Shown here piece by piece: positions 7,890 to 52,649 of a stretch of 64,000 bases of DNA; the first letter of the stretch is position 1; each line of letters begins with the position of its first letter. The stretch spans positions 1,178,001-1,242,000 of the forward strand of contig OZ037843.1 of NCBI GenBank assembly GCA_964035575.1, in the 5' to 3' direction. The translations under genes and the position numbers were made by a program. The DNA comes from Rhynchopus sp. YZ270_cl-10 (taxonomy: Eukaryota). The notes beneath the pieces were generated by a model. It ran no database searches, had not been told where the DNA came from, and saw only the letters and a program-made list of their open reading frames with translations.

Positions 7890-8927
7890 ATGGATCTGCA
7901 TGTGGTGTTTTCCGACGAGACACACGTGATTGAGGTGGCTCTGGCTGACACAACTGCGGACATGCGGCGGAAGGTGGCGTCTGCAGTGGGGCTGCCTGAA
8001 GGCAGCTTTGACATGAGCTTCGGAGGCGAAGTGATGGGAAAAGGAGCAGACGTGACGCAGCTGAGTGCTGGTAACACGATTGAGGTGTCGTTGACGATGA
8101 AGTTCGAAGCTGTGGCAGCGCTTCGTGCATTGGGTGAGGCAGACCTGACGTCCGAGAGGTTGAAGGAGGTGAGGGATCCTGAGGTGGCGCGTTTGCTTCT
8201 GCAGGCGGAGGTTGCGACTGTCATTCCTGATGAGTTCCTAGAAGGTTCATCGTTAACGCGACTTGATCTGAGTGCTGTGTCGACTGTCACGCGGATTGGC
8301 GGCAACTTTCTCTCCGGATGCAGCAGTGTAACAGCTCTCGACTTATCTTCACTCACCACTGTCACGCACATTGGGTACAACTTTCTCTCCAGATGCAAGA
8401 GTTTGACAGCTGTTGACTTATCTTCACTCGACAGCATCACACACACCGGCGACGGCTTCCTCTCCAGATGCTGGAGTCTCACAGCCCTCGACTTATCTTC
8501 ACTCAACAGGCTTGAGTGGATCGGAGACGATTTCCTAAAAGAATGCAGCAGTCTAACAGAACTAAATTTAACTTCTCTCAACAGCATCACACATACCGGG
8601 GACGGCTTTCTCTCCGGATGCTGGAGTCTCACAGCTCTCGACTTATCTTCACTCAACAGACTTGAGTGGATCGGTGATGATTTCCTGAAAGAATGCAGCA
8701 GTCTAACAGAACTAGATCTGTCTTCACTCGACAGTGTTATGCACATTGGCAAGGCGAACTTCTGCGAGGGTACAAACTTACAAACCATCCGCCTCTCTGG
8801 GTGCAGTGCTGTTGCGTTACGCGCTGTGAAGGAGGCCAACCTTAAGGTTGTGCCGGAGTCCCGTCCGAAACGGAAGCGAGACGAATCGCCTGACGAAGAC
8901 TGCAGGCGACTGAGACTGTCGCAGTGA
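7890..8927 (+). CDS. N-terminal ubiquitin-like domain + BspA-type (25-aa) leucine-rich repeats + basic NLS-like tail, ~345 aa
   Basis: MDLHVVFSDETHVIEVALADTTADMRRKVASAVGLP (beta-grasp pattern). Repeats LTxLDLSSLxxxxxIGxxFLxxCxS. RPKRKR near the C-terminus. ATG at 7890 after ACACAAAAC. Confidence 0.88.
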   Translation: MDLHVVFSDETHVIEVALADTTADMRRKVASAVGLPEGSFDMSFGGEVMGKGADVTQLSAGNTIEVSLTMKFEAVAALRALGEADLTSERLKEVRDPEVARLLLQAEVATVIPDEFLEGSSLTRLDLSAVSTVTRIGGNFLSGCSSVTALDLSSLTTVTHIGYNFLSRCKSLTAVDLSSLDSITHTGDGFLSRCWSLTALDLSSLNRLEWIGDDFLKECSSLTELNLTSLNSITHTGDGFLSGCWSLTALDLSSLNRLEWIGDDFLKECSSLTELDLSSLDSVMHIGKANFCEGTNLQTIRLSGCSAVALRAVKEANLKVVPESRPKRKRDESPDEDCRRLRLSQ

Positions 8928-20600: not shown

Positions 20601-20730
20601 ATTTTCGAGAGTCCCTTTCCCTGGGAGGCTCCGTAATTACGGACCCTAGGGTACGTAATGATACTCCGTAAAGAGGGAGTGTCCTAACATGCCGTTTTAC
20701 GGACCCTCGGGGTGTGCGGACCCCGCCGTG
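17604..20730. mobile_element. 3.1-kb non-autonomous CACTA/CMC-like element
   Basis: CA|CACGGCGGGGTCCACACACCCGAGGGTCCGTAAA ... TTTACGGACCCTCGGGGTGTGCGGACCCCGCCGTG|CA. Subterminal TTACGGACCC repeats. Internal duplication of about 17866-18150 at about 20015-20290. Confidence 0.85.
19299..19458 (-). repeat. ~160-bp dispersed repeat (other copies at about 58110-58279 and 60039-60142)
   Basis: TGTCACCTCATGA..GGAAATAGA..GGTTCTGGGG(G)ACGAACCGCGCTGCAGAG..CAGGTCGAGG..TTTCACCAC is shared by three loci. Confidence 0.85.
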
Positions 20731-21404
20731 CACCAACACCCCACCCCTCCACAGAACAGCCTCTGCCTCATCCTCCCTGCCTCCCTCCCCTTGCGATGTC
20801 TGGGGAGGGGATCGACTGACCACCAAAAGGACAACATACGCAAAGTGCGACACATCAGCAGACACGCCTTCAACAAGGAGAAGGCAGTTTCGACCACGTA
20901 AAGCGGGGGAGAAGCTCAGTTGCAGAAGACGGTGTACACCTCGAGTCGACACTGACCACACAGGAAACCCTGGGGTACACGCAAATCTCACTGGATGTAT
21001 CGTGTGCTGGGAGCAGTGGTCCATCACTTCTGGTTCACCAGTATGTTGAAGCCGCATCCCACCTTCTTGAAAGGGTTCCCTTTTGCTCGCATCCTTTGCA
21101 ACTGAGGAGAGAACATCATACCACCCCCGTCAGGATGATTTGGTGGAAGTAGTTGCGTCAGGCAGTGAAGAACCCTGGGACGAGCTTCGTAGCTTGCCCA
21201 CGGAGGCAACTCCGATACTCCCGTTTGTTGATTGGGTGAGTAGCACAAACGTGTGGACACGACGTCGAAGCTGATTTCTGTAAGTACCCCTTACCCTCCA
21301 GACCTCCGTGGATGGGAAGCCAGTGCAGACCACTCCAAATGAAGCACACACCAACCTCCACACTTACGAAGGCAGGAATACACCTTTACACATCACAGTG
21401 CACA

Positions 21405-23123
21405 ATGGGCTGCCTCGAGCGTGCACTGTCGCTTGACGGGACACTGGACACGCATAGCAGACGCAGACGACTGATTTATTTTATCTTCAACTGTGTGCTT
21501 TGTGCAGCATCGTGTCTGTTTACTGTGATTCAGGCGTTAACCTTTCATGACAGGTATCTGTACTTGGGAGGGATTCTTGCGTCTGTGTTGAACGGTGTCT
21601 GTTCTATTTTAGTCGTGACGTTCAGGTGCAAGCTGACCACGTTCATCATTGTTGCAGGGTGTGTGGTGTACGCACTTGCGCTGCTGTGTATAGACATGAC
21701 TGGACGCACTGAGTACGTATCCATGTGGCCGTTGATGGTTCTTGTGGTGGACTTTCTCTTGGTAATGCAGGTGCCCACACAGTACAGCACAATTGTCGTG
21801 GTGTGCACACTGGTGTATTTGGTCATCATCACTGCAGAAGAAACGTGGAGGTTTGGTCTGCTCGACATACCCGGGCTCGAGTCTCAAGAGCATCGACGTT
21901 CCTACTTAGAGAGCATGGGTGACTGTGATGTGCTGCCTTGCAAGCAGAGTAAAGCTGTTAACCAATTTGGAATTGCAGCATTGGTCTTTGTTCTTGACTT
22001 CATCGCAACTCGAGGCTTTGCACGTGGTCTCCTGAAGGAGCAGGCATCAATGCAACGCACAATCGCGACAGTGCAGGACATCGCCTCGCTCCTTGCTGGC
22101 TACGACGTGGAGAAGGTGGCGGAGCTGCTGGAGGAGCACGGTGGTGAGCTGCCTGAGGGGATGACGACAGCACTGCGGAAGTTGGAGCAGAACCTGCGTG
22201 TGTACAAGGCGTACCTCCCGAAGACGTGTCTGCCGTTTGAGGACGAGAAGGACGAATGTGTGGAACCTGGTGGTGGGCAGGATGGTACTGACAGTGACTA
22301 TCAGAGCACAGTGTCAGCGGCAACATCGAACGCGTCTGCTGCAGTGCGACGCACTTCCTTTTGGTTGCAGCCTCTCCTGCTCTCATCCACAAAGGCAACA
22401 CTGCTGACACTGAACATCAAAGACACCCTGCACCGCCTGGAGGAGGACAGTGCACGCTTCTCCGACCTCTTCACAACTGTTCTTCTGAAGACCCTGCAGG
22501 CAACAGACAGCAGACGTGGGATGGTGGACGTCTTTGTTGGGGATAGGATACACTGCTCGTTCAACGCGTCGAAGCAGTGTGCGTCGCACGCAACCTCAGC
22601 ACTGCATGCAGCAAGCATGCTCATGAGAGCTGGCCTGGCAGCCTCTGTGAACGTGGGTGTTGCAATGGGGACAGTGCTGCGTGGTGACATGGGTTGTGAT
22701 GTGATGCGCCGCTTCAGCATGGTGGGGACACTTGTGCGTGACGTGCACGGGATGGAACGTGCAGGACGTATGCTGGGGTGCGACGTTGTCTGCAACAGGA
22801 TGTGCTTCAGCGACGCTGAGTGCGAACACGACCTGCGTCTGCTTCCGTGCAAGGTGGAGGTTGCTCGAGACTGCGAGGCACAGGTTGTGGCTGAGCTGGT
22901 TTCGAAGGAAGAAGAAGCCCCAACTGCAGCTGACGAGTGGATGTACCAGATAGGCGGGAAGAAGCACTGGGAGGACTACAACATAGTGGTGCGTGGGTAC
23001 CTGCGTGGTGAGAGTTGTGACACAGACGTTGCGAAGGCGTGGGTGGAGGCGGGTGGGAGAGGCACACCAGCACACGCAGTTCCTTCCGGGACGTGCAGTG
23101 TTGTGTGTTCCTATCTTCGGTGA
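21405..23123 (+). CDS. Membrane pseudo-adenylate cyclase, copy 3 (~572 aa; most divergent TM region)
   Basis: Intact ORF from the conserved MGCLERALSLDG start. C-terminal two-thirds nearly identical to copy 1. Confidence 0.9.
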   Translation: MGCLERALSLDGTLDTHSRRRRLIYFIFNCVLCAASCLFTVIQALTFHDRYLYLGGILASVLNGVCSILVVTFRCKLTTFIIVAGCVVYALALLCIDMTGRTEYVSMWPLMVLVVDFLLVMQVPTQYSTIVVVCTLVYLVIITAEETWRFGLLDIPGLESQEHRRSYLESMGDCDVLPCKQSKAVNQFGIAALVFVLDFIATRGFARGLLKEQASMQRTIATVQDIASLLAGYDVEKVAELLEEHGGELPEGMTTALRKLEQNLRVYKAYLPKTCLPFEDEKDECVEPGGGQDGTDSDYQSTVSAATSNASAAVRRTSFWLQPLLLSSTKATLLTLNIKDTLHRLEEDSARFSDLFTTVLLKTLQATDSRRGMVDVFVGDRIHCSFNASKQCASHATSALHAASMLMRAGLAASVNVGVAMGTVLRGDMGCDVMRRFSMVGTLVRDVHGMERAGRMLGCDVVCNRMCFSDAECEHDLRLLPCKVEVARDCEAQVVAELVSKEEEAPTAADEWMYQIGGKKHWEDYNIVVRGYLRGESCDTDVAKAWVEAGGRGTPAHAVPSGTCSVVCSYLR

Positions 23124-23523
23124 TTGTGTTTTATTGCATCAACCTTTTATGTGCACTTTTTATTTGGAAATTGGATGCAGAACATTCAAAAGCTGTTTCG
23201 GGATTCGCCCCGAATTGGAATTGTCAATGTGGCAATCAGGTGCAGGGTGGTTCCGTGCATATCATAAAACCTGGCACCTTCTGTATGTGTCCCAAAACCA
23301 AGAGCGTTATGTGTGAACAAAATGTTTTGAAGGCAGGGAAAATGAACCTTTTTTTCTCTCTTTTTTGACATCTCAGACACCTTTTCTTGCACCCCCTTCT
23401 TTTGTCCAAGTATTATTTTACAGCTGTGCCCTTTTGCAGCACTCTATCAGGCTACTTTTGCCTTCACTACTTCCTCGTCACACACGAAACGCAGGAATAC
23501 ACCCTTACACACCACAGTGCACA

Positions 23524-25236
23524 ATGGGCTGTCTCGAGCGTGCACTGTCGCTTGACGGGACACTGGACACGCACAGCAGACGTATACGAAAGATTTACTT
23601 TATTTTCAACTGCTTGACCTTTGCAACCTCGTCTGCCTTCATCCTGTTAGAGGTGACATCCTTCCGCGGAAGCTACGTCTTTCTGGCAGGTTTTGCTTGC
23701 GCTATGCTGTGCAGCATCTGTTCTCTGCTAGTCATTGTGTTAAAGTACGAACTGACCACGCTCGTCATGGTGTCAGGCGCCGGACTGTACGCTGTTGCGC
23801 TACTAGTCTGTGACTTGTGTGCGCGCACTGAGTATGGATACGCTTGGCCAATGATGGTGCTTTTGGTGGACTATCTCCTGGTATTGCAGCTGCCTGCACG
23901 GTACAGCACAGCTGCCGTGGTGTGCACACTGGTGTACATGTTTGTTATTGCTGCAGAAGAATTGTGGAGGTTTGGTCTGCTCGACATACCCGGGCTCATG
24001 CCTCAAGACCGTCGACGTTCCCACGTAGATGGCCTGGGTGACTGTGATGTGCTGCCTTGCAAGCAGAAGAAAGCTGTGGCAGATCTTATGATGGCAGCGT
24101 CCGTCTTCGTCCTTGACTTCATCACAACGCGTGGCTTTGCACGTGGTCTCCTGAAGGAGCAGGCATCAATGCAGCGCACAATCGCAACAGTGCAGGACAT
24201 CGCCTCGCTCCTTGCTGGCTACGACGTGGAGAAGGTGACGGAGCTGCTGGAGGAGCACGGTGGTGAGCTGCCTGACGGGATGACGACAGCACTGCGGAAG
24301 TTGGAGCAGAACCTGCGTGTGTACAAGGCGTACCTCCCGAAGACGTGTCTGCCGTTTGAGGACGAGAAGGACCAATGTGTGGAACCTGGTGGTGAGCAGG
24401 ATGGTGCTGACAGTGACTATCAGAGCACAGTGTCAGCAGCAACATCGAACGCGTCTGCTGCAGTGCGACCCACTTCCTTTTGGTTGCAGCCTCTCCTGCT
24501 CTCATCCACAAAGGCAACACTGCTGACACTGAACATCAAAGACACCCTGCACCGCCTGGAGGAGGACAGTGCACGCTTCTCCGACCTCTTCACAACTGTT
24601 CTTCTGAAGACCCTGCAGGCAACAGACAGCAGACGTGGGATGGTGGACGTCTTTGTTGGGGACAGGATCCACTGCTCGTTCAACGTGTCGAAGCAGTGTG
24701 CGTCGCACGCAACCTCAGCACTGCATGCAGCAAGCATGCTCATGAGAGCTGGCCTGGCAGCCTCTGTGAACGTGGGTGTTGCAATGGGGAAGGTGCTGCG
24801 TGGTGACATGGGTTGTGATGTGATGCGCCGCTTCAGCATGGTGGGGACACTTGTGCGTGACGTGCACGGGATGGAACGTGCAGGACGTATGCTGGGGTGC
24901 GACGTTGTCTGCAACCGTCTTTGCTTCAGCGACGCTGAGTGCGAACATGACCTTCGTCTGCTTCCGTGCAAGGTGGAGGTTGCTCGAGACTGCGAGGCAC
25001 AGGTTGTGGCTGAGCTGGTTTCGAAGGAAGAAGAAGCCCCAACTGCAGCTGACGAGTGGATGTACCAGATAGGCGGGAAGAAGCACTGGGATTTGTACAA
25101 CACAGCAGTGCGTGGGTACCTGCGTGGTGAGAGTACGGACGTTGCGAAGGCGTGGGTGGAGGCGGGTGGGAGTGGTACACCAGCACACGCAGTTCCTTCC
25201 GGGACGTGCAGTGTTGTGTGTTCCTATCTTCGGTAG
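23524..25236 (+). CDS. Membrane pseudo-adenylate cyclase, copy 4 (~570 aa)
   Basis: Intact paralogue with the same upstream ACACCACAGTGCACA-ATG context. Confidence 0.9.
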   Translation: MGCLERALSLDGTLDTHSRRIRKIYFIFNCLTFATSSAFILLEVTSFRGSYVFLAGFACAMLCSICSLLVIVLKYELTTLVMVSGAGLYAVALLVCDLCARTEYGYAWPMMVLLVDYLLVLQLPARYSTAAVVCTLVYMFVIAAEELWRFGLLDIPGLMPQDRRRSHVDGLGDCDVLPCKQKKAVADLMMAASVFVLDFITTRGFARGLLKEQASMQRTIATVQDIASLLAGYDVEKVTELLEEHGGELPDGMTTALRKLEQNLRVYKAYLPKTCLPFEDEKDQCVEPGGEQDGADSDYQSTVSAATSNASAAVRPTSFWLQPLLLSSTKATLLTLNIKDTLHRLEEDSARFSDLFTTVLLKTLQATDSRRGMVDVFVGDRIHCSFNVSKQCASHATSALHAASMLMRAGLAASVNVGVAMGKVLRGDMGCDVMRRFSMVGTLVRDVHGMERAGRMLGCDVVCNRLCFSDAECEHDLRLLPCKVEVARDCEAQVVAELVSKEEEAPTAADEWMYQIGGKKHWDLYNTAVRGYLRGESTDVAKAWVEAGGSGTPAHAVPSGTCSVVCSYLR

Positions 25237-25705
25237 TTTTGCTGATTCATCGTGGCTAAGGACGCTCAGGCGTGGCTCAGGCGCCCTCGGGAATACTTAC
25301 CCAAGTACGCCTTAGCCACCTCTGAAGTAATAATCCTTTACACACATCACTGTGTTACCAGATAGAATCACGTCGTTCACTCACCCAACCGTGCTGAGAA
25401 ACACCAGACCTTGATCCCATTTTTTATAATTTACTAGAAAGTCATTAAAATTTTGTTCATTTTTCCAGATTGACCCCACCACTGACTGGGATCGGCTCCA
25501 AAACGCAAATAACGGCGTTTTCGCCCGTATTGTTTACACGAAACCCCGTGCAGACTAGCCATTTAATTAATTATTTACCCGACTCCCATTCCTAGTATCC
25601 CGTCTGGAGCTGTGCCCTTTTGCAACACCCCATCGGGCTACTCTTCCCTTCCCAACCTCCACACCACAAACGAAGGCAATACACCTTTACACACCACAGT
25701 TCACA

Positions 25706-27430
25706 ATGGGCTGTCTCGAGCGTGCACTGTCGCTTGACGGGACACTGGACAAGCAAAGCAGACAAAAGCGAAAGCTATTCTCTATCTTTAACTGCTTAAC
25801 ATTTGCAGCCTCGTGTGCCTTCTTCCTGTTAGAGCTGGCATCCTTCCGTGGGAGCTACATCCTCATGACAGGTATTGTCTGCTCTATACTTTTCAGCTTC
25901 TGTTCTCTGCTACTCATTCTGTTAAAGTACGAACTGACCACGCTCGTCATGGTGTCAGTCGGCGGACTGTACGCTGTGGTGATACTGGTTTGCGACCTGT
26001 GTGCGCGCACTGAGTATGGATACGTCTGGCCAATGATGGTGCTTTTGGTGGACTACCTCCTGGTATTGCAGCTGCCTGCACGGTACAGCACAGCTGCCGT
26101 GGTGTGCACACTGGTGTACATGCTTGTTCTTGCCGTAGAAGAATCGTGGAGGTTTGGTCTGTTCGACATACCCGGGCTCATGCCTCAAGACCATCGACGT
26201 TCGTACGTAGATGGTCTAGATGACTGTGATGTGCTGCCTTGCAAGAAGAAGAAAGCTGAGGCTGAGTTTATGACTGCAGCTTTTGTCTTCGTCCTTGACT
26301 TCATCGCAACTCGAGGCTTTGCACGTGGTCTCCTGAAGGAGCAGGCATCAATGCAACGCACAATTGCAACAGTGCAGGACATCGCCTCGCTCCTTGCTGG
26401 CTACGACGTGGAGAAGGTGACGGAGCTGCTGGAGGAGCACGGTGGTGAGCTGCCTGACGGGATGACGACAGCACTGCGGAAGTTGGAGCAGAACCTGCGT
26501 GTGTACAAGGCGTACCTCCCGCAGACGTGTCTGCCGTTTGAGGACGAGAAGGACGAATGTGTGGAACCTGGTGGTGAGCAGGATGGCACTGACAGTGACG
26601 ACTCAAGCACAGTGTCAGCAGCATCATCGAGCATGCTGTCTCCATTTCCGGTGACACGCACTTCCTTTTGGTTGCAGCCTCTCCTGCTCTCATCCACAAA
26701 GGCAACACTGCTGACACTGAACATCAAAGACACCCTGCACCGCCTGGAGGAGGACAGTGCACGCTTCTCCGACCTCTTCACAACTGTTCTTCTGAAGACC
26801 CTGCAGGCAACAGACAGCAGACGTGGGATGGTGGACGTCTTTGTTGGGGACAGGATCCACTGCTCGTTCAACGTGTCGAAGCAGTGTGCGTCGCACGCAT
26901 CCTCAGCACTGCACGCAGCAAGCATGCTCATGAGAGCTGGCCTGGCAGCCTCTGTGAACGTGGGTGTTGCAACAGGCACAGTGTTGCGTGGTGACATGGG
27001 TTGTGATGTGATGCGTCGCTTCAGCATGGTGGGGACACTTGTGCGTGACGTGCACGGGATGGAACGTGCAGGACGTATGCTGGGGTGCGACGTTGTCTGC
27101 AACCGTCTTTGCTTCAGCGACGCTGAGTGCGAACATGACCTTCGTCTGCTTCCGTGCAAGGTGGAGGTTGCCCGAGACTGTGAGGCACAGGTTGTGGCTG
27201 AGCTGGTTTCGAAGGAAGAAGAAGCCTCAACTGCAACGGACGAGTGGATGTACCAGATCGGTGGGAAGAAGCACTGGGAATTGTACAACACAGCAGTGCG
27301 TGGGTACCTGCGTGGTGAGAGCAGTGACACAGACGTTGCGAAGGCGTGGGTGGAGGCGGGTGGGAGTGGCACACCAGTACACGCAGTTCCTTCCGGGACG
27401 TGCAGTGTTGTGTGTTCCTATCTTCGGTGA
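25706..27430 (+). CDS. Membrane pseudo-adenylate cyclase, copy 5 (574 aa)
   Basis: Intact paralogue. Its 3' flank matches that of copy 3. Confidence 0.9.
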   Translation: MGCLERALSLDGTLDKQSRQKRKLFSIFNCLTFAASCAFFLLELASFRGSYILMTGIVCSILFSFCSLLLILLKYELTTLVMVSVGGLYAVVILVCDLCARTEYGYVWPMMVLLVDYLLVLQLPARYSTAAVVCTLVYMLVLAVEESWRFGLFDIPGLMPQDHRRSYVDGLDDCDVLPCKKKKAEAEFMTAAFVFVLDFIATRGFARGLLKEQASMQRTIATVQDIASLLAGYDVEKVTELLEEHGGELPDGMTTALRKLEQNLRVYKAYLPQTCLPFEDEKDECVEPGGEQDGTDSDDSSTVSAASSSMLSPFPVTRTSFWLQPLLLSSTKATLLTLNIKDTLHRLEEDSARFSDLFTTVLLKTLQATDSRRGMVDVFVGDRIHCSFNVSKQCASHASSALHAASMLMRAGLAASVNVGVATGTVLRGDMGCDVMRRFSMVGTLVRDVHGMERAGRMLGCDVVCNRLCFSDAECEHDLRLLPCKVEVARDCEAQVVAELVSKEEEASTATDEWMYQIGGKKHWELYNTAVRGYLRGESSDTDVAKAWVEAGGSGTPVHAVPSGTCSVVCSYLR

Positions 27431-27978: not shown

Positions 27979-29367
27979 ATGGCATCCCTTAGATCAGCCT
28001 GGTTGGCCTGCTTGGTCGCTTTCTGTTCTGCTACGTCGAACGTTGAGGTGCAGGTCACCAAATACCGTGCTGCAGTGTCCGGCAGAAGTCCTGAGGCCGG
28101 TGGCGACGACTTCTCCGCAAGCGTGACCATCAGCACTGGAGCTGCCCCCGCTTCCACTATGTGCGCACAGTGCAACTGCATCAAGAGCAACCCCTTTGCG
28201 TATGCACGCAGCTGCGAGGCGACGTACAGCTACGAGACAGGGGTGGTGGCGACGGAGGCCTCTGCGATTGACGTTTCCGTCCATGGCTGGGAGGACGACA
28301 TTGGCGACCGCTGTACATTCGACCTTGCTCCCATTCCCGGGGACAACTTCGACGACGACGAAGGCACGACCGCCTGCAACTATCCCCTCGCCGACGTCAC
28401 CGAGGGCGAATGGCACGAAGTTACCTGCGGCGATGCGGCCACAATGGTCACCCTTCGTTTCCGTTGGACTGCGGCAGCGCCCCTCATCGAGACCGAGCAC
28501 GACGCCATCTTCGCCATCAAATCCGCTCTCGGAGGCCTCGACGCCTGGACCGGCACCTCCCTCTGCTCTTTCCCTGGCATCGGCTGCACCCCGCAGGGTG
28601 CCGTCGAGAGAATCGATCTGTCAGACCTGACAACCAATGCAGCACCTCTACCGGACCTCGCAGTGCTGACAACGCTCCGCATTCTGTCTGTGAAGGGAAC
28701 CTCTGTGACCGGGTTTGGCTCGCTTCCTACATCTTTGGTTGACTTGGACTTTTCATGGACCGATTTCAGCTCCGAAATGCCGCCCGTCATCGCAACCCTT
28801 TCCAACCTAGTTACCCTCCGCGCAAAGGCAGCAAACCTTGAGGGCACCCTCCCAGCATTCCCTGAGGCGTTGATCACAATCGACGTCAGCCAGAACGAAC
28901 TGAGCGGCGCCGTTCCCACTCTTCCGGTGAACGTCAGAAACTTCATTGGTAGATACAACGGCTTCTCTAGGGCTCTTCCGGGCAGCGAATCTGTCCTGCG
29001 GATGGTGGTTAACAACAACAACTTTGAGGGTACCATTCCGGCGTACCCTAAATTGACTCATGGACACTTCCATCACAATGCGCTCACCGGAACGTACGTG
29101 CCTGCCGATATGCCAGAGGCACACTACATTGATGTGTCGCACAACAGTATGAACGGTGTGCTCCCGAACCTCGCGGCAACAAAGGTGGAGGTGTTCAAAG
29201 GGTACCGCAACAACTTCGTCGGGGGGTTCCACTTTGCAGCCCCAGGGCAGCGTGTGATGGCGATGCTGTACGTGAATTACAACAACCTCTCGGGCAAGCA
29301 GCCTACCCCAGCAGAGGCCCTGCTCGTTGCAGCGCGTGTTAAGGTGTCGAACAATGGATGGGATTAG
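27979..29367 (+). CDS. Secreted leucine-rich-repeat protein (plant-RLP/PGIP-like LxGxLP repeats) with an N-terminal Cys-containing beta domain, 462 aa
   Basis: Signal peptide MASLRSAWLACLVAFCSA. LRR N-cap AIFAIKSALGGLDAWTGTSLCSFPGIGC. Repeats IDVSQNELSGAVP, NNNNFEGTIP, HNALTG, IDVSHNSMNGVLP. No TM segment. Confidence 0.88.
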   Translation: MASLRSAWLACLVAFCSATSNVEVQVTKYRAAVSGRSPEAGGDDFSASVTISTGAAPASTMCAQCNCIKSNPFAYARSCEATYSYETGVVATEASAIDVSVHGWEDDIGDRCTFDLAPIPGDNFDDDEGTTACNYPLADVTEGEWHEVTCGDAATMVTLRFRWTAAAPLIETEHDAIFAIKSALGGLDAWTGTSLCSFPGIGCTPQGAVERIDLSDLTTNAAPLPDLAVLTTLRILSVKGTSVTGFGSLPTSLVDLDFSWTDFSSEMPPVIATLSNLVTLRAKAANLEGTLPAFPEALITIDVSQNELSGAVPTLPVNVRNFIGRYNGFSRALPGSESVLRMVVNNNNFEGTIPAYPKLTHGHFHHNALTGTYVPADMPEAHYIDVSHNSMNGVLPNLAATKVEVFKGYRNNFVGGFHFAAPGQRVMAMLYVNYNNLSGKQPTPAEALLVAARVKVSNNGWD

Positions 29368-43992: not shown

Positions 43993-45018
43993 CCCCGCCC
44001 CCCACACACTTTATTTCAATATCATGCTTCGTCGTTGGGTGCCCACGTCCACTGAAGACGTTATATTTTGATTTTATTTTCTGCACTTTCAACTTTCACC
44101 TTTTTGTTTCGCTCAATACAAAAAAATAGTGGAGTTCATCCTCGGGTGTCTACACTAATACAACCAAGTTTTCAAGAAAAGAAAGAACATGAAAAAGAAA
44201 GCCAGGAAAGTGGACGAATCTCCATTTCAAAATACTGGGTCAAAAATAATAATGAACATCAATTCCTTAAAAGCGTGTATTTTGGTATAGTGGAGCGCCC
44301 TTCGGGGTGTCTACACTAAATACAACCAAATTTTTTACAACTGAGTTCCTCGCTCAGTGCTGCTGGAAGGATGTGTAGCGCATTGTAGGTCAGAGTTGGG
44401 ACGTCCTCGCCCCCGGGGATACGGAGGGTCTTTGTGTTTTAAATAAAAAGGAAATTTACTTCTTTTACTTATTCTAAAAAGCCCCCGACAGTGGGCGGGG
44501 TCGAACAACAAAACCAAGAAGCGCCGGGTGTAGCACCACACTCTTTCTTTGGAAATGTCACACAGCAACGCTTTCTCTAGTGAAAGACTCTCTCGGATGT
44601 GGTGGAAGCGTACAACTAACAAACTCTCCCCCTATTTCGTTTGCCGTTTTTCCTGTGTGGGTGAAGATAGCTATTGACACCGTAGTATTTCTTTGAGGGG
44701 TGCCTGCATTGGCAGCTACAGGTTGTTACCCACCAACATCCACACGTATGTTGTCTTATCTAAAGCATCCAACATGGAAGATAGTAATTGGAGTGTTCAT
44801 GGAGGGTGTGCATCCTTCCGAAGGTAGTTATCGACACCGTAGTATTTTACAGCAACGCTTTACTCTAGTAAAAGACTATCTCGAAACCGGTAAACCGGTA
44901 TTTTAAACCCCCCCTGATAAATGACAACACATCTCGTTTCCTTCACAAACACCACCCCACCCCTCTTCAATCTACCCTCCACACACCATTCCCCACAGAA
45001 CAGAGTTACCCCCTGAAC

Positions 45019-46104
45019 ATGGACATCACAGGATACTTCGAGTCAGCCAGCTGTGTGATAGAAGTGGACGGGAGGGACACCCTTGCACAGGTGAAGGGGA
45101 AGCTTCTTGCGGAGCTTGGCGTGCCACGTGCTCGGCATGTTGGTGTGCGGATGAAAGGCGGTGGCGACATCGGCAACGACGACTTGCGCATCTGCGACAC
45201 GGAGATGGATGAGGGATGTGCCGTTGAGCTGTACTACACTGGTGTGAACATCAGTCCTGGGGTGATACCACATATGGGTCAGACTTTCTCTGTCACACTG
45301 TCCCCGTGCCATAAGTACCTTGCAGAGATGTCGTGGACTGAGAAGCATGTGTACATCTTCGACACAGAAACACACGAGCGTCTCTGCCACTTTCCTTGCA
45401 AGTATATTTATACCCCAGCATTCTCACCGTGCAGTGAGTGGATCTCATCAATCAACAAGGACACGCAGTGTGCTGAAGTTCATAACGTGAAGACAGGTGC
45501 ACTGGAGCACTGTTTTGGACTTAAACGTGATGGGCCTTACACTACAGCATGGTCACCCTGTGGAACACAGCTGTTGTCGTGTTGCCAGGGCAAGGGTTTG
45601 CAGGTGTGGGACATTGCAACAGGTGTTGTTGTGCACGAATGGGACCACATTGTGGACAGCAACTACTTCATGCTTGTGACAGGCAACAGGGTGGCGGTGT
45701 TTTGCAATAGCAGCAAAGACATCACCATTTGGGATTACACGACAGGGGTGGAGGTGCTGGTTCTGACATGCCCTTCTGATGTTCATTATGTAGCACTGAC
45801 ACCAAACGAGCATTTCATTGCAGCGTGTTGCACTGACTGTGTGCGTGTCTGGAACATTGAAACAGGCGAATGTGTCTTTGAAGACGTCTCAGACAACGAG
45901 TGGACTGACGTTGCAGTGTCGAACGACATTGTTGCTGCCTACTCTTCATGTTTGAGCTTGTGGTCCATTTCAACAGGAGAGCGACTGCTGCACCGTGAAT
46001 GTGAGACCGATTCTTGTGGTCTTGCAATCAGCAGCTGTGGTGGTGTGGTGATGTACGCAGGGAGGGAAGGTGTTGAGATTGTTGACGTCTCACACCTGTC
46101 TTGA
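45019..46104 (+). CDS. Ubiquitin-like domain + WD40 beta-propeller protein, copy 1 (361 aa)
   Basis: ~75-aa beta-grasp-like N-terminus, then WD-type repeats (YIFDTET, QVWDIATG, TIWDYTTG, RVWNIETG, SLWSISTG). Confidence 0.9.
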   Translation: MDITGYFESASCVIEVDGRDTLAQVKGKLLAELGVPRARHVGVRMKGGGDIGNDDLRICDTEMDEGCAVELYYTGVNISPGVIPHMGQTFSVTLSPCHKYLAEMSWTEKHVYIFDTETHERLCHFPCKYIYTPAFSPCSEWISSINKDTQCAEVHNVKTGALEHCFGLKRDGPYTTAWSPCGTQLLSCCQGKGLQVWDIATGVVVHEWDHIVDSNYFMLVTGNRVAVFCNSSKDITIWDYTTGVEVLVLTCPSDVHYVALTPNEHFIAACCTDCVRVWNIETGECVFEDVSDNEWTDVAVSNDIVAAYSSCLSLWSISTGERLLHRECETDSCGLAISSCGGVVMYAGREGVEIVDVSHLS

Positions 46105-46441
46105 ATCCCTTCCACAACGGAAAGGTGCCATTTAATTTTGTATCACCATCCTGCACCTTGCCTGGGTAACTAACTCCACACGGGAAGATACGTGAAGATA
46201 GATGCACATGTCTCTCGTTGTGGGAGTGGGTTGGCAATGGAGATGGCACCGTTCCGCTGTGGCTTTTGCACATGCGAAGCGCAAACCCGTCATGGTGTGG
46301 GAGGGTGGGAGGGACCTCTAACTGGGCTGTTTTTTTTCAAATGACAACACATCTCGTTTCCTTCACAAACACCACCCCACCCTTCTTCAATCTACCCTCC
46401 ACACACACCATTCCCCACAGAACAGAGTTACTCCCCTGAAC

Positions 46442-47527
46442 ATGGACATCACAGGACACTTCGAGTCAGCCAGCTGTGTGATAGAAGTGGACGGGAGGGA
46501 CACCCTTGCACAGGTGAAGGGGAAGCTTCTTGCGGAGCTTGGCGTGCCACGTGCTCGGCATGTTGGTGTGCGGATGAAAGGCGGAAGCGACATCGGCAAC
46601 GACGACTTGCGCATCTGCGACACGGAGATGGATGAGGGATGTGCCGTTGAGCTGTACTACACTGGTGCGAACATCACTCCTGGGGTGATACCACTTGCAG
46701 GTGAGATTTTCTCCGTCACACTCTCCCCGTGCCATAAGTACCTTGCAGTGATGTCAACTGAGGAGCACAATATTATGTCTATCTTCGACACAGTAACACA
46801 TGAGCGTCTGTGCCACTTCCCTGGATGTCTGGGCACCCCAGAATTCTCACCGTGCAGTGAGTGGATCTCATCAGTCAACGAGGACACGAAGTGTGCTGAA
46901 GTTCATGACGTGAAGACAGGTGCACTGGAGCACTCCTTTGGAGATGAAGGTGATGGACCGTTTTTTGCAGCATGGTCACCCTGTGGAACACAGCTGTTGT
47001 CGTGCTGCAAGAGCAAGGGTTTGCAGGTGTGGGACATTGCAACAGGTGTTGTTGTGCATGAATGGCATATTGTAGCCTTCAGCAACTACTTCATGCTTGT
47101 GACAGGCAACAGGGTGGCGATGTTTGGTGATAACAGTGAAGACATCACCATTTGGGACTACACGACAGGGGTGGAGGTGCTTGTTCTGACATGCCCTTCT
47201 GGTGCTCAGTATGCGGCACTGACACCAAACGAGCGTTTCATTGCAGCGTGTTGGATCGACTGTGTGCGTGTCTGGAACATTGAAACAGGCGAATGTGTCT
47301 TTGAAGACGTCTCAGACAACGAGTGGACTGACGTTGCAGTGTCGAACGACATTGTTGCTGCCTACTCTTCATGTTTGAGCTTGTGGTCCATTTCAACAGG
47401 AGAGCGACTGCTGCACCGTGAATGTGAGACCGATTCTTGTGGTCTTGCAATCAGCAGCTGTGGTGGTGTGGTGATGTACGCAGGGAGGGAAGGTGTTGAG
47501 ATTGTTGACGTCTCACACCTGTCTTGA
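46442..47527 (+). CDS. Ubl-WD40 protein, copy 2 (361 aa)
   Basis: Tandem paralogue, 1423-bp unit spacing from copy 1. Confidence 0.9.
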   Translation: MDITGHFESASCVIEVDGRDTLAQVKGKLLAELGVPRARHVGVRMKGGSDIGNDDLRICDTEMDEGCAVELYYTGANITPGVIPLAGEIFSVTLSPCHKYLAVMSTEEHNIMSIFDTVTHERLCHFPGCLGTPEFSPCSEWISSVNEDTKCAEVHDVKTGALEHSFGDEGDGPFFAAWSPCGTQLLSCCKSKGLQVWDIATGVVVHEWHIVAFSNYFMLVTGNRVAMFGDNSEDITIWDYTTGVEVLVLTCPSGAQYAALTPNERFIAACWIDCVRVWNIETGECVFEDVSDNEWTDVAVSNDIVAAYSSCLSLWSISTGERLLHRECETDSCGLAISSCGGVVMYAGREGVEIVDVSHLS

Positions 47528-47621
47528 ACCCACTTCCACAATGGAAAGGTGCCATCTGGACTTAGAACTGGGCGAGGAGTTATTATTCCTTTTTTCTTTT
47601 GTTTTTTTTTTAAAGCAGATA

Positions 47622-48263
47622 CCGGCCGCGTACATATTACGTCGCGTATTTATTACGGGGGGTACTTATTACGTCGCGTACTAATTAAGTCGCTTTTTTG
47701 AAGGCCCGCGGGTGCCCAAAAAGCGACGTAATTAGTACACACCGTAAGGTGAAAAAAAAAGTGGGGGTAATCATGTTTTGAACACAGCTGGTGTGGGCAC
47801 ATCACTGGGGGGATACCCACCAAACCCACAAAATCCCGAAGTCATCGCAGATCGTGTGAGCGAGGAGGAGAACAAACCGAACACGCGGCGCGTGTAGACG
47901 GCACAGGGTAAGGTGGAAGAAATCGGTGAGACCTCTGCCACAGTGCGTCTAGTACCTCCACATGCACAAGAGGAGTGGGAAGTGCCAATGAGTTCCTCAA
48001 ATCCGCAATTTGAGCCATTCGTTCATATTTCAACGAATATTTTAAAAAAACTTTTGTTTGCGTTGCAATCTCTGCCCAATGTAACCTTGTAAAGGGCCGA
48101 GGGTCAACACGCCAACACCAAGAGAAATGCCAGACATCCTTCCCACTCACCTTGTCAGTAGATTTTGTTTTTCTTCAAAAAATTAATTACGTCGCACACT
48201 TATTACGTCGCGTACTAATTAAGTCGGTATTTGCCCTAACCGACTTAATTAGTACGCGGCCGG
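47622..48263. mobile_element. 642-bp TA-flanked (Tc1/mariner-like) non-autonomous element inside the WD40 array
   Basis: TA|CCGGCCGCGTAC ... GTACGCGGCCGG|TA, with subterminal ATTACGTCGCGTACTAATTAAGTCG repeats. Confidence 0.8.
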
Positions 48264-48564
48264 TATGCTTTTCCAGGAATCCGGATTTAAAGTTTGGGGG
48301 GGGGGGGGGTCAGTTTGTTTTCCCAAAATATTTTTTCAGCACAAGAGGGTGGGAGATGGCATCGTTCCGCTGTGGCTTTTGCACATGCGAAGCGCAAACC
48401 CGTCATGGTGTGGGAGGGTGGGAGGGACCTCTAACTGGGCGAGGAGTTATCTCTCTTGTTTTTTTTTCAAATGACAACACATCTCGTTTCCTTCACAAAC
48501 ACCACCCCCTCTTCAATCTACCCTCCACACACCATTCCCCACAGAACAGAGTTACCCCCTGAAC

Positions 48565-49644
48565 ATGGACATCACAGGACACTTCGAGTCAGCAAGCTGT
48601 GTGATAGAAGTGGACGGGAGGGACACCCTTGCACAGGTGAAGGGGAAGCTTCTTGCGGAGCTTGGTGTGCCACGTGCTCGGCATGTTGGTGTGCGGATGA
48701 AAGGCGGAGGCGACATCGGCAACGACGACTTGCGCATCTGCGACACGGAGATGGATGAGGGATGTGCCGTTGAGCTGTACTACACTGGTGCGAACATCAC
48801 TCCTGGGGTGATACCACTTGCGGGTGAGACTTTCTCCCTCACACTCTCCCCGTGCGATAAGTACCTTGCAGTGATGTCGACTGAGCAGCATGTGTACATC
48901 TTCGACACAGAAACACGTGAGCGTCTGTGCCACTTCCCTGGATTTCTGTGCGTCCCAGCATTCTCACCGTGCAGTGAGTGGATCTCATCAGTCAACGAGG
49001 ACACGAAGTGTGCTGAAGTTCATAACGTGAAGACAGGTGCACTGGAGCACTCCTTTGGAGATGAAGGTGATGGACCGTATATTACGGCGTGGTCACCCTG
49101 TGGAACACAGCTGTTGTCGTGCTGCAAGAGCAAGGGTTTGCAGGTGTGGGACATTGCAACAGGTGTTGTTGTGCATGAATGGCACATTGTGGACTGGAGC
49201 GACTACTTCATGCTTGTGACAGGCGACAGGGTGGCGGTGTTTGGCGATAGCAGCAAAGACATCACCATTTGGGACTACACGACAGGGGTGGAGGTGCTTG
49301 TTCTGACATGCCCTTCTGCTGTTTGTTATGCGGCACTGACACCAAACGAGCGTTTCATTGCAGCGTGTTGCACCGACTGTGTGCGTGTCTGGAACATTGA
49401 AACAGGCGAATGTGTATTTGAAGACGTCTCAGAAAACTGGTGGACTGACGTTGCAGTGTCGAACGACATTGTTGCTGCCTACTCTTCATGTTTGAGCTTG
49501 TGGTCCATTTCAACAGGAGAGCGACTGCTGCACCGTGAATGTGAGACTAACAATTCTTGCGGTCTTGCAATCAGCAGCTGTGGTGGTGTGGTGATGTACG
49601 TAAGGGAAGGTGTTGAGATTGTTGACGTCTCACACCTGTCTTGA
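48565..49644 (+). CDS. Ubl-WD40 protein, copy 3 (359 aa)
   Basis: Tandem paralogue with an intact ORF. Confidence 0.9.
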   Translation: MDITGHFESASCVIEVDGRDTLAQVKGKLLAELGVPRARHVGVRMKGGGDIGNDDLRICDTEMDEGCAVELYYTGANITPGVIPLAGETFSLTLSPCDKYLAVMSTEQHVYIFDTETRERLCHFPGFLCVPAFSPCSEWISSVNEDTKCAEVHNVKTGALEHSFGDEGDGPYITAWSPCGTQLLSCCKSKGLQVWDIATGVVVHEWHIVDWSDYFMLVTGDRVAVFGDSSKDITIWDYTTGVEVLVLTCPSAVCYAALTPNERFIAACCTDCVRVWNIETGECVFEDVSENWWTDVAVSNDIVAAYSSCLSLWSISTGERLLHRECETNNSCGLAISSCGGVVMYVREGVEIVDVSHLS

Positions 49645-49811
49645 ACCCACTTCCACAATGGAAAGGTGCCATCTGGTTCGTGCAAGAAGTTCTATCTCTT
49701 ATTTTTTCAAATGACAACACATCTCGTTTCCTTCACAAACACCACCCCACCCCTCTTCAATCTACCCTCCACACACACCTGTCCCCACAGAACAGAGTTA
49801 CTCCCCTGAAC

Positions 49812-50900
49812 ATGGACATCACAGGACACTTCGAGTCAGCAAGCTGTGTGATAGAAGTGGACGGGAGGGACACCCTTGCTCAGGTGAAGGGGAAGCTTCT
49901 TGCGGAGCTTGGCGTGCCACGTGCTCGGCATGTTGGTGTGCGGATGAAAGGCGGAGGCGACATCGGCAACGACGACTTGCGCATCTGCGACACGGAGATG
50001 GATGAGGGATGTGCCGTTGAGCTGTACTACACTGGTGCGAACATCACTCCTGGGGTAATCCCACACGTGGACAGCCCGTTCTCCCTCACACTCTCCCCGT
50101 GCGATAAGTACCTTGCAGTGGCGTGGGATGCGGGTGTGTCTGTCTTCGACACGGAGACCCATGAGAGGTGCTGCACCTTTCGATTGGAGGGCACCTGGGT
50201 CACAGCGTTCTCACCGTGCAGTGAGTGGATCTCCTGCAGCAACGAGAGCGCGGAGTGCATCGAAGTGCGCCGTGTGAGGACCGGTGCATTGGAGCACTCC
50301 TTGCCCTCCAGTCATCCTGGGTGCATGCGCGTTACCGCATGGTCTCACTGTGGAACGATGCTGTTGTCGGGCCCGCAGGTGTGGGACATTGCAACAGGTC
50401 GTGTTGTGCATGAGTGGCCTGACATAGGGAACAGCTTTAAGGACTGCTACGGTGCCTTTGGAGTGGCTGGCAACAAAATGGTGACGATTGGTGGGACGAA
50501 GCGTGTGACCGTATGGGACTACACAACAGGAACGGAGGTGCACGCTCTTGTGTGTCCCAGTTGTCCGAATAATGTGGCATTGGCGCCGAACCAGCGTTAC
50601 GTTGCAGCGTGCTTCGACGAAAGTGTGCGTGTCTGGGATATCGAAACAGGTGAATGTGTCTTTGAACACCTCTCAGGTCTTTATGTTCCATGGGCGGACA
50701 TCGCAGTGTCCAACGACGTTGTTGCAGCTTACACATCTAAGAACGTGACGTTGTGGTCCATCTCAACAGCAAAGCAGTTATGTTCATATACCCTGCAGAG
50801 CTTTGGTGTCTTCGGGCTGGCACTGAGTAGCTGTGGAGGTGGGCTGATGTACGCAGATGAGGGCGGAGTTAAGATCGTGGACATCTCACACCTGACGTGA
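49812..50900 (+). CDS. Ubl-WD40 protein, copy 4 (~362 aa; identical Ubl, divergent propeller)
   Basis: Start placed at the conserved MDITGHF ATG (49812). Sequence diverges after PGVIP. Confidence 0.9.
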   Translation: MDITGHFESASCVIEVDGRDTLAQVKGKLLAELGVPRARHVGVRMKGGGDIGNDDLRICDTEMDEGCAVELYYTGANITPGVIPHVDSPFSLTLSPCDKYLAVAWDAGVSVFDTETHERCCTFRLEGTWVTAFSPCSEWISCSNESAECIEVRRVRTGALEHSLPSSHPGCMRVTAWSHCGTMLLSGPQVWDIATGRVVHEWPDIGNSFKDCYGAFGVAGNKMVTIGGTKRVTVWDYTTGTEVHALVCPSCPNNVALAPNQRYVAACFDESVRVWDIETGECVFEHLSGLYVPWADIAVSNDVVAAYTSKNVTLWSISTAKQLCSYTLQSFGVFGLALSSCGGGLMYADEGGVKIVDISHLT

Positions 50901-51095
50901 TGTGGGCATACTTCTAGCTTGTGCTCATTGTTGAGTGTGTTCGTTCTGTTCAGGCTGCTGTTGACATACACTACTGTGAGAGACCCCCCCTTCCCTTCCC
51001 ATCATTGTATAGCCCCGTTTTCTTCCCTGTCCCCCACCACGCCATACGCACACAGGAATTGCGAAATAACACAAACAGCAGAGTGCTAGGTTGAC

Positions 51096-52181
51096 ATGGA
51101 CATCACAGGACACTTCGAGTCAGCAAGCTGTGTGATAGAAGTGGACGGGAGGGACACCCTTGCTCAGGTGAAGGGGAAGCTTCTTGCGGAGCTTGGCGTG
51201 CCACGTGCTCGGCATGTTGGTGTGCGGATGAAAGGCGGAGGCGACATCGGCAACGACGACTTGCGCATCTGCGACACGGAGATGGATGAGGGATGTGCCG
51301 TTGAGCTGTACTACACTGGTGCGAACATCACTCCTGGGGTGATACCACTTGCAGGTGAGATTTTCTCCGTCACACTCTCCCCGTGCCATAAGTACCTTGC
51401 AGTGATGTCGACTGAGAAGCATGTGTATATCTTCGACACAGAAACACATGAGCGGCTGTGCCACTTCCCTGGCCTTCGTTTTTGCACCCCAGCATTTTCA
51501 CCGTGCAGTGAGTGGATCTCATCAGTCAACGAGGACACGCAGTGTGCTGAAGTTCATGACGTGAAGACAGGTACACTGGAGCACTCCTTTGGAGAAGAAG
51601 GTACGAGGCCTTACACTACAGCATGGTCACCCTGTGGAACACAGCTGTTGTCGTGTTGCGAGAGCAAGGGTTTGCAGGTGTGGGACATTGCAACAGGTGT
51701 TGTTGTGCATGAATGGGACCACATTGTGGACAGCAACGACGTCATGCTTGTGACAGGCAACAGGGTGGAGGTGTTTATTTTTAGCAGCGAAGACATCACC
51801 ATCTGGGACTACACGACAGGGGTGGAGGTGCTTGTTCTGACATGCCCTTCTGATGTTCAGTATGCGGCACTGACACCAAACGAGCGTTTCATTGCAGCGG
51901 GTTGCACCGACTGTGTGCGTGTCTGGAACATTGAAACAGGCGAATGTGTATTTGAAGATGTCTCAGAAAACGGGTGGACTGACGTTGCCATGTCGAACGA
52001 CATTGTTGCTGCCTACTCTTCATGTTTGAGCTTGTGGTCCATTTCAACAGGAGAGCGACTGCTGCACCGTGAATGTGAGGCCAACGCTTCTTGCGGTCTT
52101 GCAATCAGCAGCTGTGGTGGTGTGGTGATGTACGCAGGGAGGGAAGGTGTTGAGATTGTTGACATCTCACACCTGTCTTGA
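51096..52181 (+). CDS. Ubl-WD40 protein, copy 5 (361 aa)
   Basis: Tandem paralogue. Its 5' flank differs from the other copies and its 3' flank matches copy 1. Confidence 0.9.
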   Translation: MDITGHFESASCVIEVDGRDTLAQVKGKLLAELGVPRARHVGVRMKGGGDIGNDDLRICDTEMDEGCAVELYYTGANITPGVIPLAGEIFSVTLSPCHKYLAVMSTEKHVYIFDTETHERLCHFPGLRFCTPAFSPCSEWISSVNEDTQCAEVHDVKTGTLEHSFGEEGTRPYTTAWSPCGTQLLSCCESKGLQVWDIATGVVVHEWDHIVDSNDVMLVTGNRVEVFIFSSEDITIWDYTTGVEVLVLTCPSDVQYAALTPNERFIAAGCTDCVRVWNIETGECVFEDVSENGWTDVAMSNDIVAAYSSCLSLWSISTGERLLHRECEANASCGLAISSCGGVVMYAGREGVEIVDISHLS

Positions 52182-52649
52182 ACTCACTTCCACAACGGAA
52201 AGGTGCCATTTAATTTTGTATCACCATCCTGCACCTTGCCTGGGTAACTAACTCCACACGGGAAGATACGTGAAGATAGATGCAGACGTCTCTCGTTGTG
52301 GGAGTGGGTTGGCAATGGAGATGGCACCGTTCCGCTGTGGCTTTTGCACATGCGAAGCGCAAACCCGTCATGGTGTGGGAAGGTGGGAGGGACCTGTAAC
52401 TGGGCGAGGAGTTATCTCTCTTATTTTTTCAAATGACAACACATCTCGTTTCCTTCACAAACACCACCCCACCCCTCTTCAATCTACCCTCCACACACAC
52501 CCCGTTCCATTCAGAGAGCCCTCCGTCTCACAACAGAGCTCAAAGAGCTCAGAAGCTGTTCCCCTTTCCTCTATCCCCCTCCCTCCCCACCTCCACACAG
52601 GGACAAATCCACACAAAAACCCCGACTACTACTACACACTCTCGTCACC

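What the first reader, a model, noticed from the sequence alone, without database searches (positions are those of the whole stretch)
45019..52181. Tandem Ubl-WD40 array: constant Ubl, hypervariable propeller loops (candidate diversified recognition/degradation system)
Seen: five intact genes whose first ~75 aa differ by at most a residue or two. Propeller differences cluster at the same loop positions and include small in-frame indels, e.g. CKYIYT/GCLGT/GFLCV/GLRFCT; LKRDGPYTT/DEGDGPFFA/DEGDGPYIT/EEGTRPYTT; SDVHY/SGAQY/SAVCY/SDVQY; DNEW/ENWW/ENGW. The strand cores stay fixed. Known: the loops before strand A and between strands B and C form the ligand-binding top face of WD40 propellers, and they diversify in fungal HNWD allorecognition proteins. 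Non-cleavable N-terminal Ubls dock on the proteasome, p97 or E3 complexes. Inference: an intracellular repertoire of variable binders coupled to a constant effector handle, possibly immune-like or substrate-targeting, in a protist.
Basis: partly seen in the sequence, partly recalled or inferred. Interest (0 to 1): 0.85.

Follow-up and report, generated by a model that had tools for sequence, protein, structure and literature searches.

The report
Ubiquitin-handled variable propeller repertoire
Five intact neighbouring genes belong to a family of over a hundred similar proteins, each with a nearly constant ubiquitin-like domain and a predicted propeller that varies on one face only, so they are likely a repertoire of different binders sharing one handle, though what they bind and where the handle docks are untested.

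Summary
Five intact single-exon genes (45019-52181) each encode a predicted ubiquitin-fold domain (Z 11.5; no Gly-Gly tail) and a predicted seven-blade WD40 propeller. At least 116 further relatives of 70-85% identity exist, apparently in one assembly. Across them, variation sits in the DA/BC loops of one face (entropy 2.11 against 0.31 on the opposite loops). The array is a recombination mosaic: g4 joins a Ubl identical in DNA to g5's onto a distant propeller, so conversion contributes to the constant Ubl. Positive selection is suggested but not shown. Loop amino-acid change runs 2-3 times the framework's silent rate, but the site-model signal vanishes once fast sites, multi-base changes or recombination are allowed. 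The ubiquitin Ile44 position is an invariant Arg, which argues against canonical proteasome docking. A parallel Ubl-LRR family (191 hits) has a member in this window. Best reading: an F-box-like adaptor repertoire with a new, non-canonical Ubl handle. Ligands, partner, expression and any immune role are untested.

The parts
45019..46104 (+). g1, Ubl-WD40 gene, 361 aa (P0001); Ubl codons 1-74, propeller from about codon 81
46442..47527 (+). g2, Ubl-WD40 gene, 361 aa (P0002); last 267 coding nt identical to g1
48565..49644 (+). g3, Ubl-WD40 gene, 359 aa (P0003)
49812..50900 (+). g4, chimeric Ubl-WD40 gene, 362 aa (P0004): local-type Ubl on a divergent propeller
49812..50056 (+). 245 nt of g4 identical to the start of g5; the identity ends at codons 82-85, the Ubl/linker-propeller junction
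51096..52181 (+). g5, Ubl-WD40 gene, 361 aa (P0005), the modelled copy; its upstream sequence differs from that of g1-g4
51096..51317 (+). g5 ubiquitin-fold domain (codons 1-74); F7, R44, G66 and E70 invariant in 121 of 121 members
44892..44989 (+). C/T-rich upstream element repeated before g1-g4 (other copies 46312-46409, 48442-48539, 49682-49779) and at 52404-52501; likely a trans-splice acceptor region (inferred)
   Evidence: family D8
46106..46327 (+). 3' flank of g1, 98% identical to the 3' flank of g5 (52184-52405): marks the tandem duplication unit
   Evidence: family D9
7890..8927 (+). Ubl + BspA-type LRR gene (P0006), member of a parallel Ubl-LRR family; outside the array

Best explanation
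These genes are part of a large, recombining family of proteins with a near-constant ubiquitin-like domain and a predicted seven-blade propeller that varies on one face, and they likely work as adaptors in which each propeller binds a different target while the shared domain recruits one common partner. Shown: intact genes, family size, mosaic structure and loop-confined variation. Predicted: both folds. Inferred: (1) the DA/BC face is the ligand face, from the WD40 convention (recalled). (2) Tandem duplication and gene conversion homogenise the Ubl and framework and reshuffle propellers and blades, while selection for new specificities probably keeps the loops diverse. (3) The Ubl is not cleaved and binds its partner through a non-canonical surface (invariant F7, R44, E70) rather than the Ile44 patch. 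(4) The partner most plausibly belongs to the ubiquitin/Ubl machinery (an E2/E3 or an unfoldase), so that bound targets, probably foreign or fast-changing proteins, would be tagged or removed, as with expanded F-box families. Steps 3 and 4 are the weakest.
For: Fold of the propeller: pLDDT 86.6, 7 blades; top Foldseek hits are G-beta, WDR5 and PkwA. Fold of the Ubl: pLDDT 85.9, Z 11.5 to ubiquitin and ISG15 and 11.2 to Rad60 SLD2, all tied. Family: 264 hits of 1756 candidates; the 120 listed are all at least 70% identical over 99-100% of the length, and 116 are not from the window. Variation: strict-DSSP top loops H 2.11 (n=67) against bottom loops 0.31 (n=60), p 8e-20; 27 of 34 hypervariable sites lie in top loops, 0 in bottom loops, 0 in the Ubl; 370 of 427 indel starts (not independent) are in top loops. 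Median pairwise identity is 15% at the 34 hypervariable sites and 90% at 167 framework sites. Loop pN is 2.1-2.8 times framework pS, bootstrap P at most 0.0024. Ubl pN 0.006 against pS 0.04 fits purifying selection. All 5 indels among the four close genes are whole codons. Mosaicism: runs test p 5e-5 on 27 informative sites, 0.048 on 14 after collapsing. A parallel Ubl-LRR family has a homologous Ubl (E 4e-8 to P0184, in a 5-sequence test) and shares contig lengths with this family. Precedent: nematode F-box families with a purifying handle and a positively selected substrate domain (PMC8120010, passages).
Against: Omega above 1 is not robust. A fast neutral class fits better than a positive class (-lnL 2047.9 against 2054.5); adding omega to it gives p 0.39; with multi-base changes p 0.13; with recombination segments p 0.077. 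pN/pS within the loops is 1.16-1.41 with a confidence interval that includes 1. Top loops are also the more variable loops in 769 unrelated WD40 domains (DA 3.22, BC 2.88, AB 1.53, CD 2.46). The g4 and g5 Ubls are identical even at silent sites (0 of 41 four-fold sites differ, against 25 of 72 in the framework), so conversion explains part of the constancy. The Ile44 patch is replaced, which weakens the degradation step. The neighbouring cyclase-like array also shows a variable and a constant half, so the pattern is not unique to this family. Plant lineage-specific F-box expansions have been read as drift (PMC3030570, abstract).
Confidence: 0.58

Rival explanations
1. Genomic drift: a Ubl-WD40 gene amplified by unequal crossing-over. 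Purifying selection holds the fold, conversion homogenises the similar parts, and the tolerant top loops drift and escape conversion. The copies would be largely redundant.
For: The positive-selection signal is not robust. Top loops are generically more variable. Truncated relatives exist (P0125, P0132, P0157). The family tree is star-like (terminal 19.2, internal 5.1). Similar reading for plant F-box genes (PMC3030570, abstract).
Against: Loop pN exceeds framework pS 2-3 fold, which plain relaxation does not predict. Conversion tracts do cross loops (267 nt shared by g1 and g2), yet 14 narrow peaks persist. The bottom loops are nearly frozen (H 0.31). 5 of 5 window genes are intact.
Confidence: 0.22
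2. The loops are diversified by a local mutational process, such as short-tract conversion from the many distant paralogues or error-prone repair, rather than by selection on point mutations. This can coexist with the best explanation.
For: 21 of 39 variable top-loop codons differ at 2-3 bases, against 8 of 45 in the framework. Allowing multi-base changes improves the fit by 10 log units. Silent divergence is raised in the loops (2.4-fold, or 1.5-fold and not significant after dropping ambiguous codons). Some rare loops are shared by otherwise unrelated paralogues, for example 19 of 41 pairs for BC4.
Against: Most loop variants of the window genes were not found among the 116 other listed proteins. 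Silent polymorphism next to variable codons is not significantly higher (p 0.09).
Confidence: 0.1
3. The Ubl is a Crinkler-like header, and the proteins are effectors delivered into prey, hosts or competitors, where the variable propellers bind foreign targets.
For: Crinkler proteins have an N-terminal Ubl header that ends at a proposed recombination hotspot (PMC5289972, passages), and g4's breakpoint sits just behind the Ubl. There is one weak Pfam Crinkler match (E 0.087, 1 of 7 sequences).
Against: Ubiquitin is the better match (7 of 7, best E 1.7e-5). There is no toxin or enzymatic C-terminal domain and no hydrophobic leader in the sequence.
Confidence: 0.07
4. The family derives from the ribosome assembly factors Rsa4/NLE1 or Ytm1/WDR12 (Ubl + WD40) and uses midasin's MIDAS domain as its common partner.
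For: Same architecture. Atlas nearest clusters are NLE/WDR12 at 0.86, which is a lead only. Rsa4 is at rank 21 in Foldseek. E65 is nearly invariant (119 of 121).
Against: Pfam NLE is not matched by any gene or Ubl. No Rsa4 or Ytm1 chain is among the 50 best Ubl matches shown (inconclusive). The Rsa4 match has rmsd 11.2.
Confidence: 0.03

Closest known systems
Expanded F-box (and MATH-BTB) substrate-adaptor families of nematodes and plants
   Same: Hundreds of tandem paralogues with a conserved N-terminal handle and a variable C-terminal binder (LRR, WD40 and others); proposed roles against pathogens (PMC8120010, passages).
   Different: The handle is a ubiquitin-fold domain; no F-box or BTB match. 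No known ligase takes such a handle, and positive selection is not robustly shown here.
Fungal HNWD/NWD allorecognition NLRs (HET-E, HET-D, HET-R)
   Same: Hypervariable WD40 binding surface, with sequence exchange among family members (PMC4986451, passages).
   Different: No NACHT or HET domain; 360 aa in all. Blades are 22% identical within a gene, against about 85%. Exchange runs between paralogues at matching blades, and the family has over 100 members rather than ten.
Rsa4/NLE1 and Ytm1/WDR12
   Same: N-terminal non-cleaved Ubl plus WD40 propeller, with the Ubl as a handle for an AAA ATPase (PMC8122580, passages).
   Different: Those are conserved essential assembly factors; no NLE match here; this family is massively expanded and hypervariable.
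Crinkler/CR proteins
   Same: Ubl header followed by a recombination junction and variable C-termini (PMC5289972, passages).
   Different: The C-terminus is always a binder propeller, not a toxin domain; no significant Crinkler match.
UBL shuttle factors (Rad23, Dsk2) and parkin UBL
   Same: Integral N-terminal ubiquitin fold (Z 10.8-10.9 to Dsk2 and parkin).
   Different: The Ile44 and His68 positions are Arg and Glu (alignment-based); no UBA domain.

Membership tests
WD40 beta-propeller proteins | Seven four-stranded blades with WD repeats | tested here: met
Integral (non-conjugated) ubiquitin-like domains | Beta-grasp fold | tested here: met
   predicted model; Pfam ubiquitin 7 of 7, best E 1.7e-5
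Conjugatable or cleavable ubiquitin fusions | Gly-Gly after strand 5 | tested here: not met
   0 of 121 members
Proteasome-binding UBL shuttle factors | Hydrophobic Ile44-centred patch (importance recalled) | tested here: not met
   R44 and E70 in 121 of 121; register inferred through the Ubl-LRR domain and strand positions, not from a residue-level superposition
Proteasome-binding UBL shuttle factors | Binding to proteasome receptors or p97 | not testable with these tools
   no eukaryotic partner sequence available to the complex tool
F-box / BTB substrate adaptors | F-box or BTB domain | tested here: not met
   no such Pfam match at E 0.1 in 5 of 5 genes
F-box / BTB substrate adaptors | Purifying selection on the handle, positive selection on the binder | tested here: inconclusive
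   handle omega about 0.15; binder signal depends on the model
Fungal HNWD NLRs | NACHT domain and N-terminal effector domain | tested here: not met
Fungal HNWD NLRs | High internal repeat conservation (about 85%) | tested here: not met
   mean 22%, maximum 35% among six blades of g5
Fungal HNWD NLRs | Hypervariable sites on the propeller's binding face | tested here: met
   face assigned from strand order, convention recalled
Rsa4/NLE1, Ytm1/WDR12 | NLE domain (PF08154) | tested here: not met
Rsa4/NLE1, Ytm1/WDR12 | MIDAS-binding glutamate at the equivalent position | not tested
   E65 is conserved here, but no alignment to Rsa4 or Ytm1 was made
Crinkler/CR effectors | CR-type Ubl header | tested here: inconclusive
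   E 0.087 in 1 of 7
Crinkler/CR effectors | Enzymatic toxin C-terminal domain | tested here: not met

The most novel reading that the evidence does not exclude
This protist carries an undescribed intracellular recognition system: hundreds of recombining Ubl-WD40 and Ubl-LRR receptors whose variable faces sample foreign proteins and whose ubiquitin-fold handle hands them to one disposal machine, in place of the F-box/cullin route. The conserved Ubl DNA doubles as the hinge at which binder domains are swapped between loci.
Probability: 0.27. Interest if true: 0.87.

Novelty: new variant of a known kind. Interest (0 to 1): 0.64.

Why it matters
Little is known about how free-living protists recognise viruses and intracellular bacteria (own knowledge). 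An antibody-like repertoire on a ubiquitin-fold handle would be a concrete, testable candidate, and one pull-down with the shared domain could reveal the common partner. It would also be a natural library of single-face-diversified propeller binders. If drift is the answer, it is still a clean case of conversion-driven evolution in a large gene family.

Tried and rejected
Expression: no RNA holder listed. Laid contigs gave no usable spliced-leader sign among the loose ends shown (24 of 685 rows shown). Summed depths were not used as copy numbers, and the thin cover of g4 in run X3 was not interpreted. The first read-laying attempt returned nothing, so g1 and g2 have no read support. Viral origin: no relative in viral contigs (0 of 7 candidates); BFVD gave only generic propellers of 9-18% identity. 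JGI metagenomes: 2 of 232 candidates, generic WD40 at 25%. A search with the distant member P0184 found only itself and 5 partial WD40 matches. The Atlas search with the Ubl alone gave unnamed clusters of 0.81 or less. The P0184 Ubl had no PDB sequence match at E 0.05. A SUMO-like reading was considered (Rad60-SLD E 0.002 in 1 of 7; Z tied) and is not resolved. Family-wide decay of linkage with distance was not significant (p 0.22), and N- and C-half trees had few supported splits, so family-wide blade shuffling is not established. The site classes were partly hand-extended after seeing the entropies; they also supply the class labels, and repeat the tests with strict DSSP limits. The kinesin search gave no taxonomic information. 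One search failed half-way and the rest was run. No complex prediction was run, as no partner was at hand. Three look-ups of earlier findings were blank. PMC4857004 was not held.
Full report
Observation. The window holds five uninterrupted + strand ORFs of 359-362 aa at 45019, 46442, 48565, 49812 and 51096 (g1-g5) and no further copy. Codons 1-74 differ by only two residues across the set. g1, g2, g3 and g5 are 88-90% identical, and g4 is 63% identical to g5.

Context. All 16 ORFs of 340 aa or more in the window are on the + strand, and a C/T-rich element precedes g1-g4. This resembles the unidirectional, trans-spliced gene clusters described for Euglenozoa (PMC10161547, passages). A euglenozoan, diplonemid-like protist is my inference; it was not tested.

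Folds. AlphaFold2 with 84 sequences gives a seven-blade propeller closed by strand 81-84 (mean pLDDT 86.6), and Foldseek matches G-beta, WDR5 and PkwA. The N-terminal 78 residues, folded with 35 sequences, give a beta-grasp (pLDDT 85.9). The best matches are ubiquitin, ISG15, OASL and Rad60 SLD2 at Z 11.0-11.5, all tied. None of 121 members has Gly-Gly in residues 72-81, so the domain is probably integral. By alignment through the Ubl-LRR domain to ubiquitin and by strand positions, ubiquitin Ile44 corresponds to R44 and His68 to E70. Both are invariant in 121 of 121 members, and R44 is kept in two relatives of 30-34% identity. The canonical hydrophobic patch (role recalled) is therefore replaced by a conserved charged surface.

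Family. A search with g5 gave 264 hits among 1756 candidates. I saw the best 120: all are at least 70% identical over the full length, and the 116 non-window ones are unnamed ENA proteins. About 40 of the 120 share one longest-contig length (counted by eye), which points to large arrays in one assembly. The other 144 hits were not seen. Among the best 150 of 1.84 billion representatives, only P0184 and P0192 were distant matches covering both domains. No relative was found in viral contigs, and only generic WD40 proteins in JGI metagenomes.

Where variation lies. Entropy was computed on the 116 non-window proteins and classed by the model's strands. DA loops average 2.02 and BC loops 2.30, against 0.29 for AB and 0.33 for CD loops (p 8e-20); the Ubl averages 0.23. 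Of 34 sites with entropy above 2.5, 27 are in DA/BC loops, 6 are at or next to the strand ends that border them and 1 is in a D strand. 370 of 427 indel starts are in these loops. DA and BC loops form the usual ligand face (recalled; I had no coordinates). Control against my reading: in 769 domains from 141 unrelated WD40 proteins the same loops are also the more variable ones, with a much smaller contrast near saturation.

Recombination. g4 and g5 share their first 245 nt exactly, and the identity ends at codons 82-85. At four-fold sites 0 of 41 differ in Ubl plus linker, against 25 of 72 in the framework (p 2e-6). g4 groups with g1-g5 in the Ubl tree (support 0.78) but not in the propeller tree. 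Among the four close genes, informative sites fall in blocks (7 runs against 16.9 expected, p 5e-5; p 0.048 after collapsing neighbours), and g1 and g2 share their last 267 nt. The constant Ubl is thus partly homogenised by conversion and has served at least once as the point where a propeller was swapped. Purifying selection also acts on it (pN 0.006, pS 0.04). Family-wide shuffling was not established, although some rare loops are shared between distant paralogues.

Selection. With my own codon-model code on four genes, M2a and M8 find about 13% of sites at omega 4.4-5 (p 2e-5 on 358 codons; p 1e-3 on 348 after dropping ambiguous codons), mostly in top loops. This is not robust: a fast neutral class fits better with as many parameters, and the test fails with multi-base changes (p 0.13) or recombination segments (p 0.077). 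With strict classes, loop pN is 2.8 times (2.1 without ambiguous codons) the framework's pS, P at most 0.0024. Loop pN over loop pS is only 1.16-1.41 with intervals including 1. Narrow divergence peaks under conversion are described as a signature of selection (PMC3924837, passages), but local multi-base mutation could give them too. Verdict: more than plain relaxation, short of proof.

A second family. The window gene at 7890-8927 encodes Ubl plus BspA-type LRRs. Its Ubl finds 191 proteins among 228 candidates; nearly all of the 120 listed carry LRR domains, and several share contig lengths with the WD40 family. A profile of these Ubls matches the WD40-family Ubls (E 4e-8 to 2e-3 in a five-sequence test). 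Their LRRs vary at a few repeat positions (87 repeats), and 74 of 120 end in a basic tail. The organism thus appears to pair ubiquitin-fold domains with two kinds of variable binder.

Mechanism. Shown: intact genes, family size, one-face variation, mosaicism. Predicted: both folds. Inferred: each propeller binds its own ligand; the Ubl binds one partner through the F7/R44/E70 surface; the partner likely lies in the ubiquitin/Ubl system, so targets would be tagged or removed. I put the adaptor-repertoire reading at 0.58, drift at 0.22, a local diversifying process as the main driver at 0.10, a Crinkler-like exported effector at 0.07 and a midasin handle at 0.03.

Comparison and novelty. It works like expanded F-box families (PMC8120010, passages) but has no F-box or BTB domain. 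It shares the variable face of fungal HNWD proteins (PMC4986451, passages) but lacks NACHT, HET and internal repeat conservation. It shares the architecture of Rsa4 and Ytm1 (PMC8122580, passages) but not the NLE domain. Listings of ten searches showed no title or abstract start describing an expanded Ubl-WD40 family. The main text of the one diplonemid genome paper read has no occurrence of WD40 or ubiquitin; its supplements were not read and may list such families. PMC3030570 was seen as abstract and outline only, and PMC5289972 as passages. I rate it a new variant of a known kind, interest 0.64.

Noticed in passing
window 7890-8927 (+): Ubl + BspA-type LRR gene with a basic, NLS-like C-terminal tail; its Ubl finds 191 proteins, nearly all of the 120 listed with LRRs. 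A second candidate variable-binder repertoire.
   Followed up: partly
window 9434-27430 (+): Array of four intact genes and one split gene (14484-15703) with a variable hydrophobic N-terminal part and a near-constant C-terminal part. No Pfam match for 9434-11149; by eye it resembles the cyclase gene at 3968-6067, which matches Pfam Guanylate_cyc.
   Followed up: partly
window 52404-52501: The upstream element of g1-g4 also precedes the unrelated 391-aa ORF at 52650, while g5 has a different upstream sequence.
   Followed up: partly
window 47632-47698 and 48182-48232: A 51-nt motif occurs three times in the longer g2-g3 spacer (D13); possibly a remnant of a small mobile element.
   Followed up: no
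window 45019-52181: The proteins are cysteine-rich (5.0-6.1% Cys), with several invariant cysteines in the Ubl and the AB loops.
   Followed up: no
window 1-64000: All 16 ORFs of 340 aa or more lie on the + strand, as in polycistronic gene clusters.
   Followed up: no
window 50526-51117: One run has a contig over g4's 3' end with 15 differences, while two other runs match exactly (records 3, 13, 28): an allele or a close paralogue.
   Followed up: no
window 27979-29367 (+): 462-aa protein with a hydrophobic leader and plant-type LRRs.
   Followed up: no
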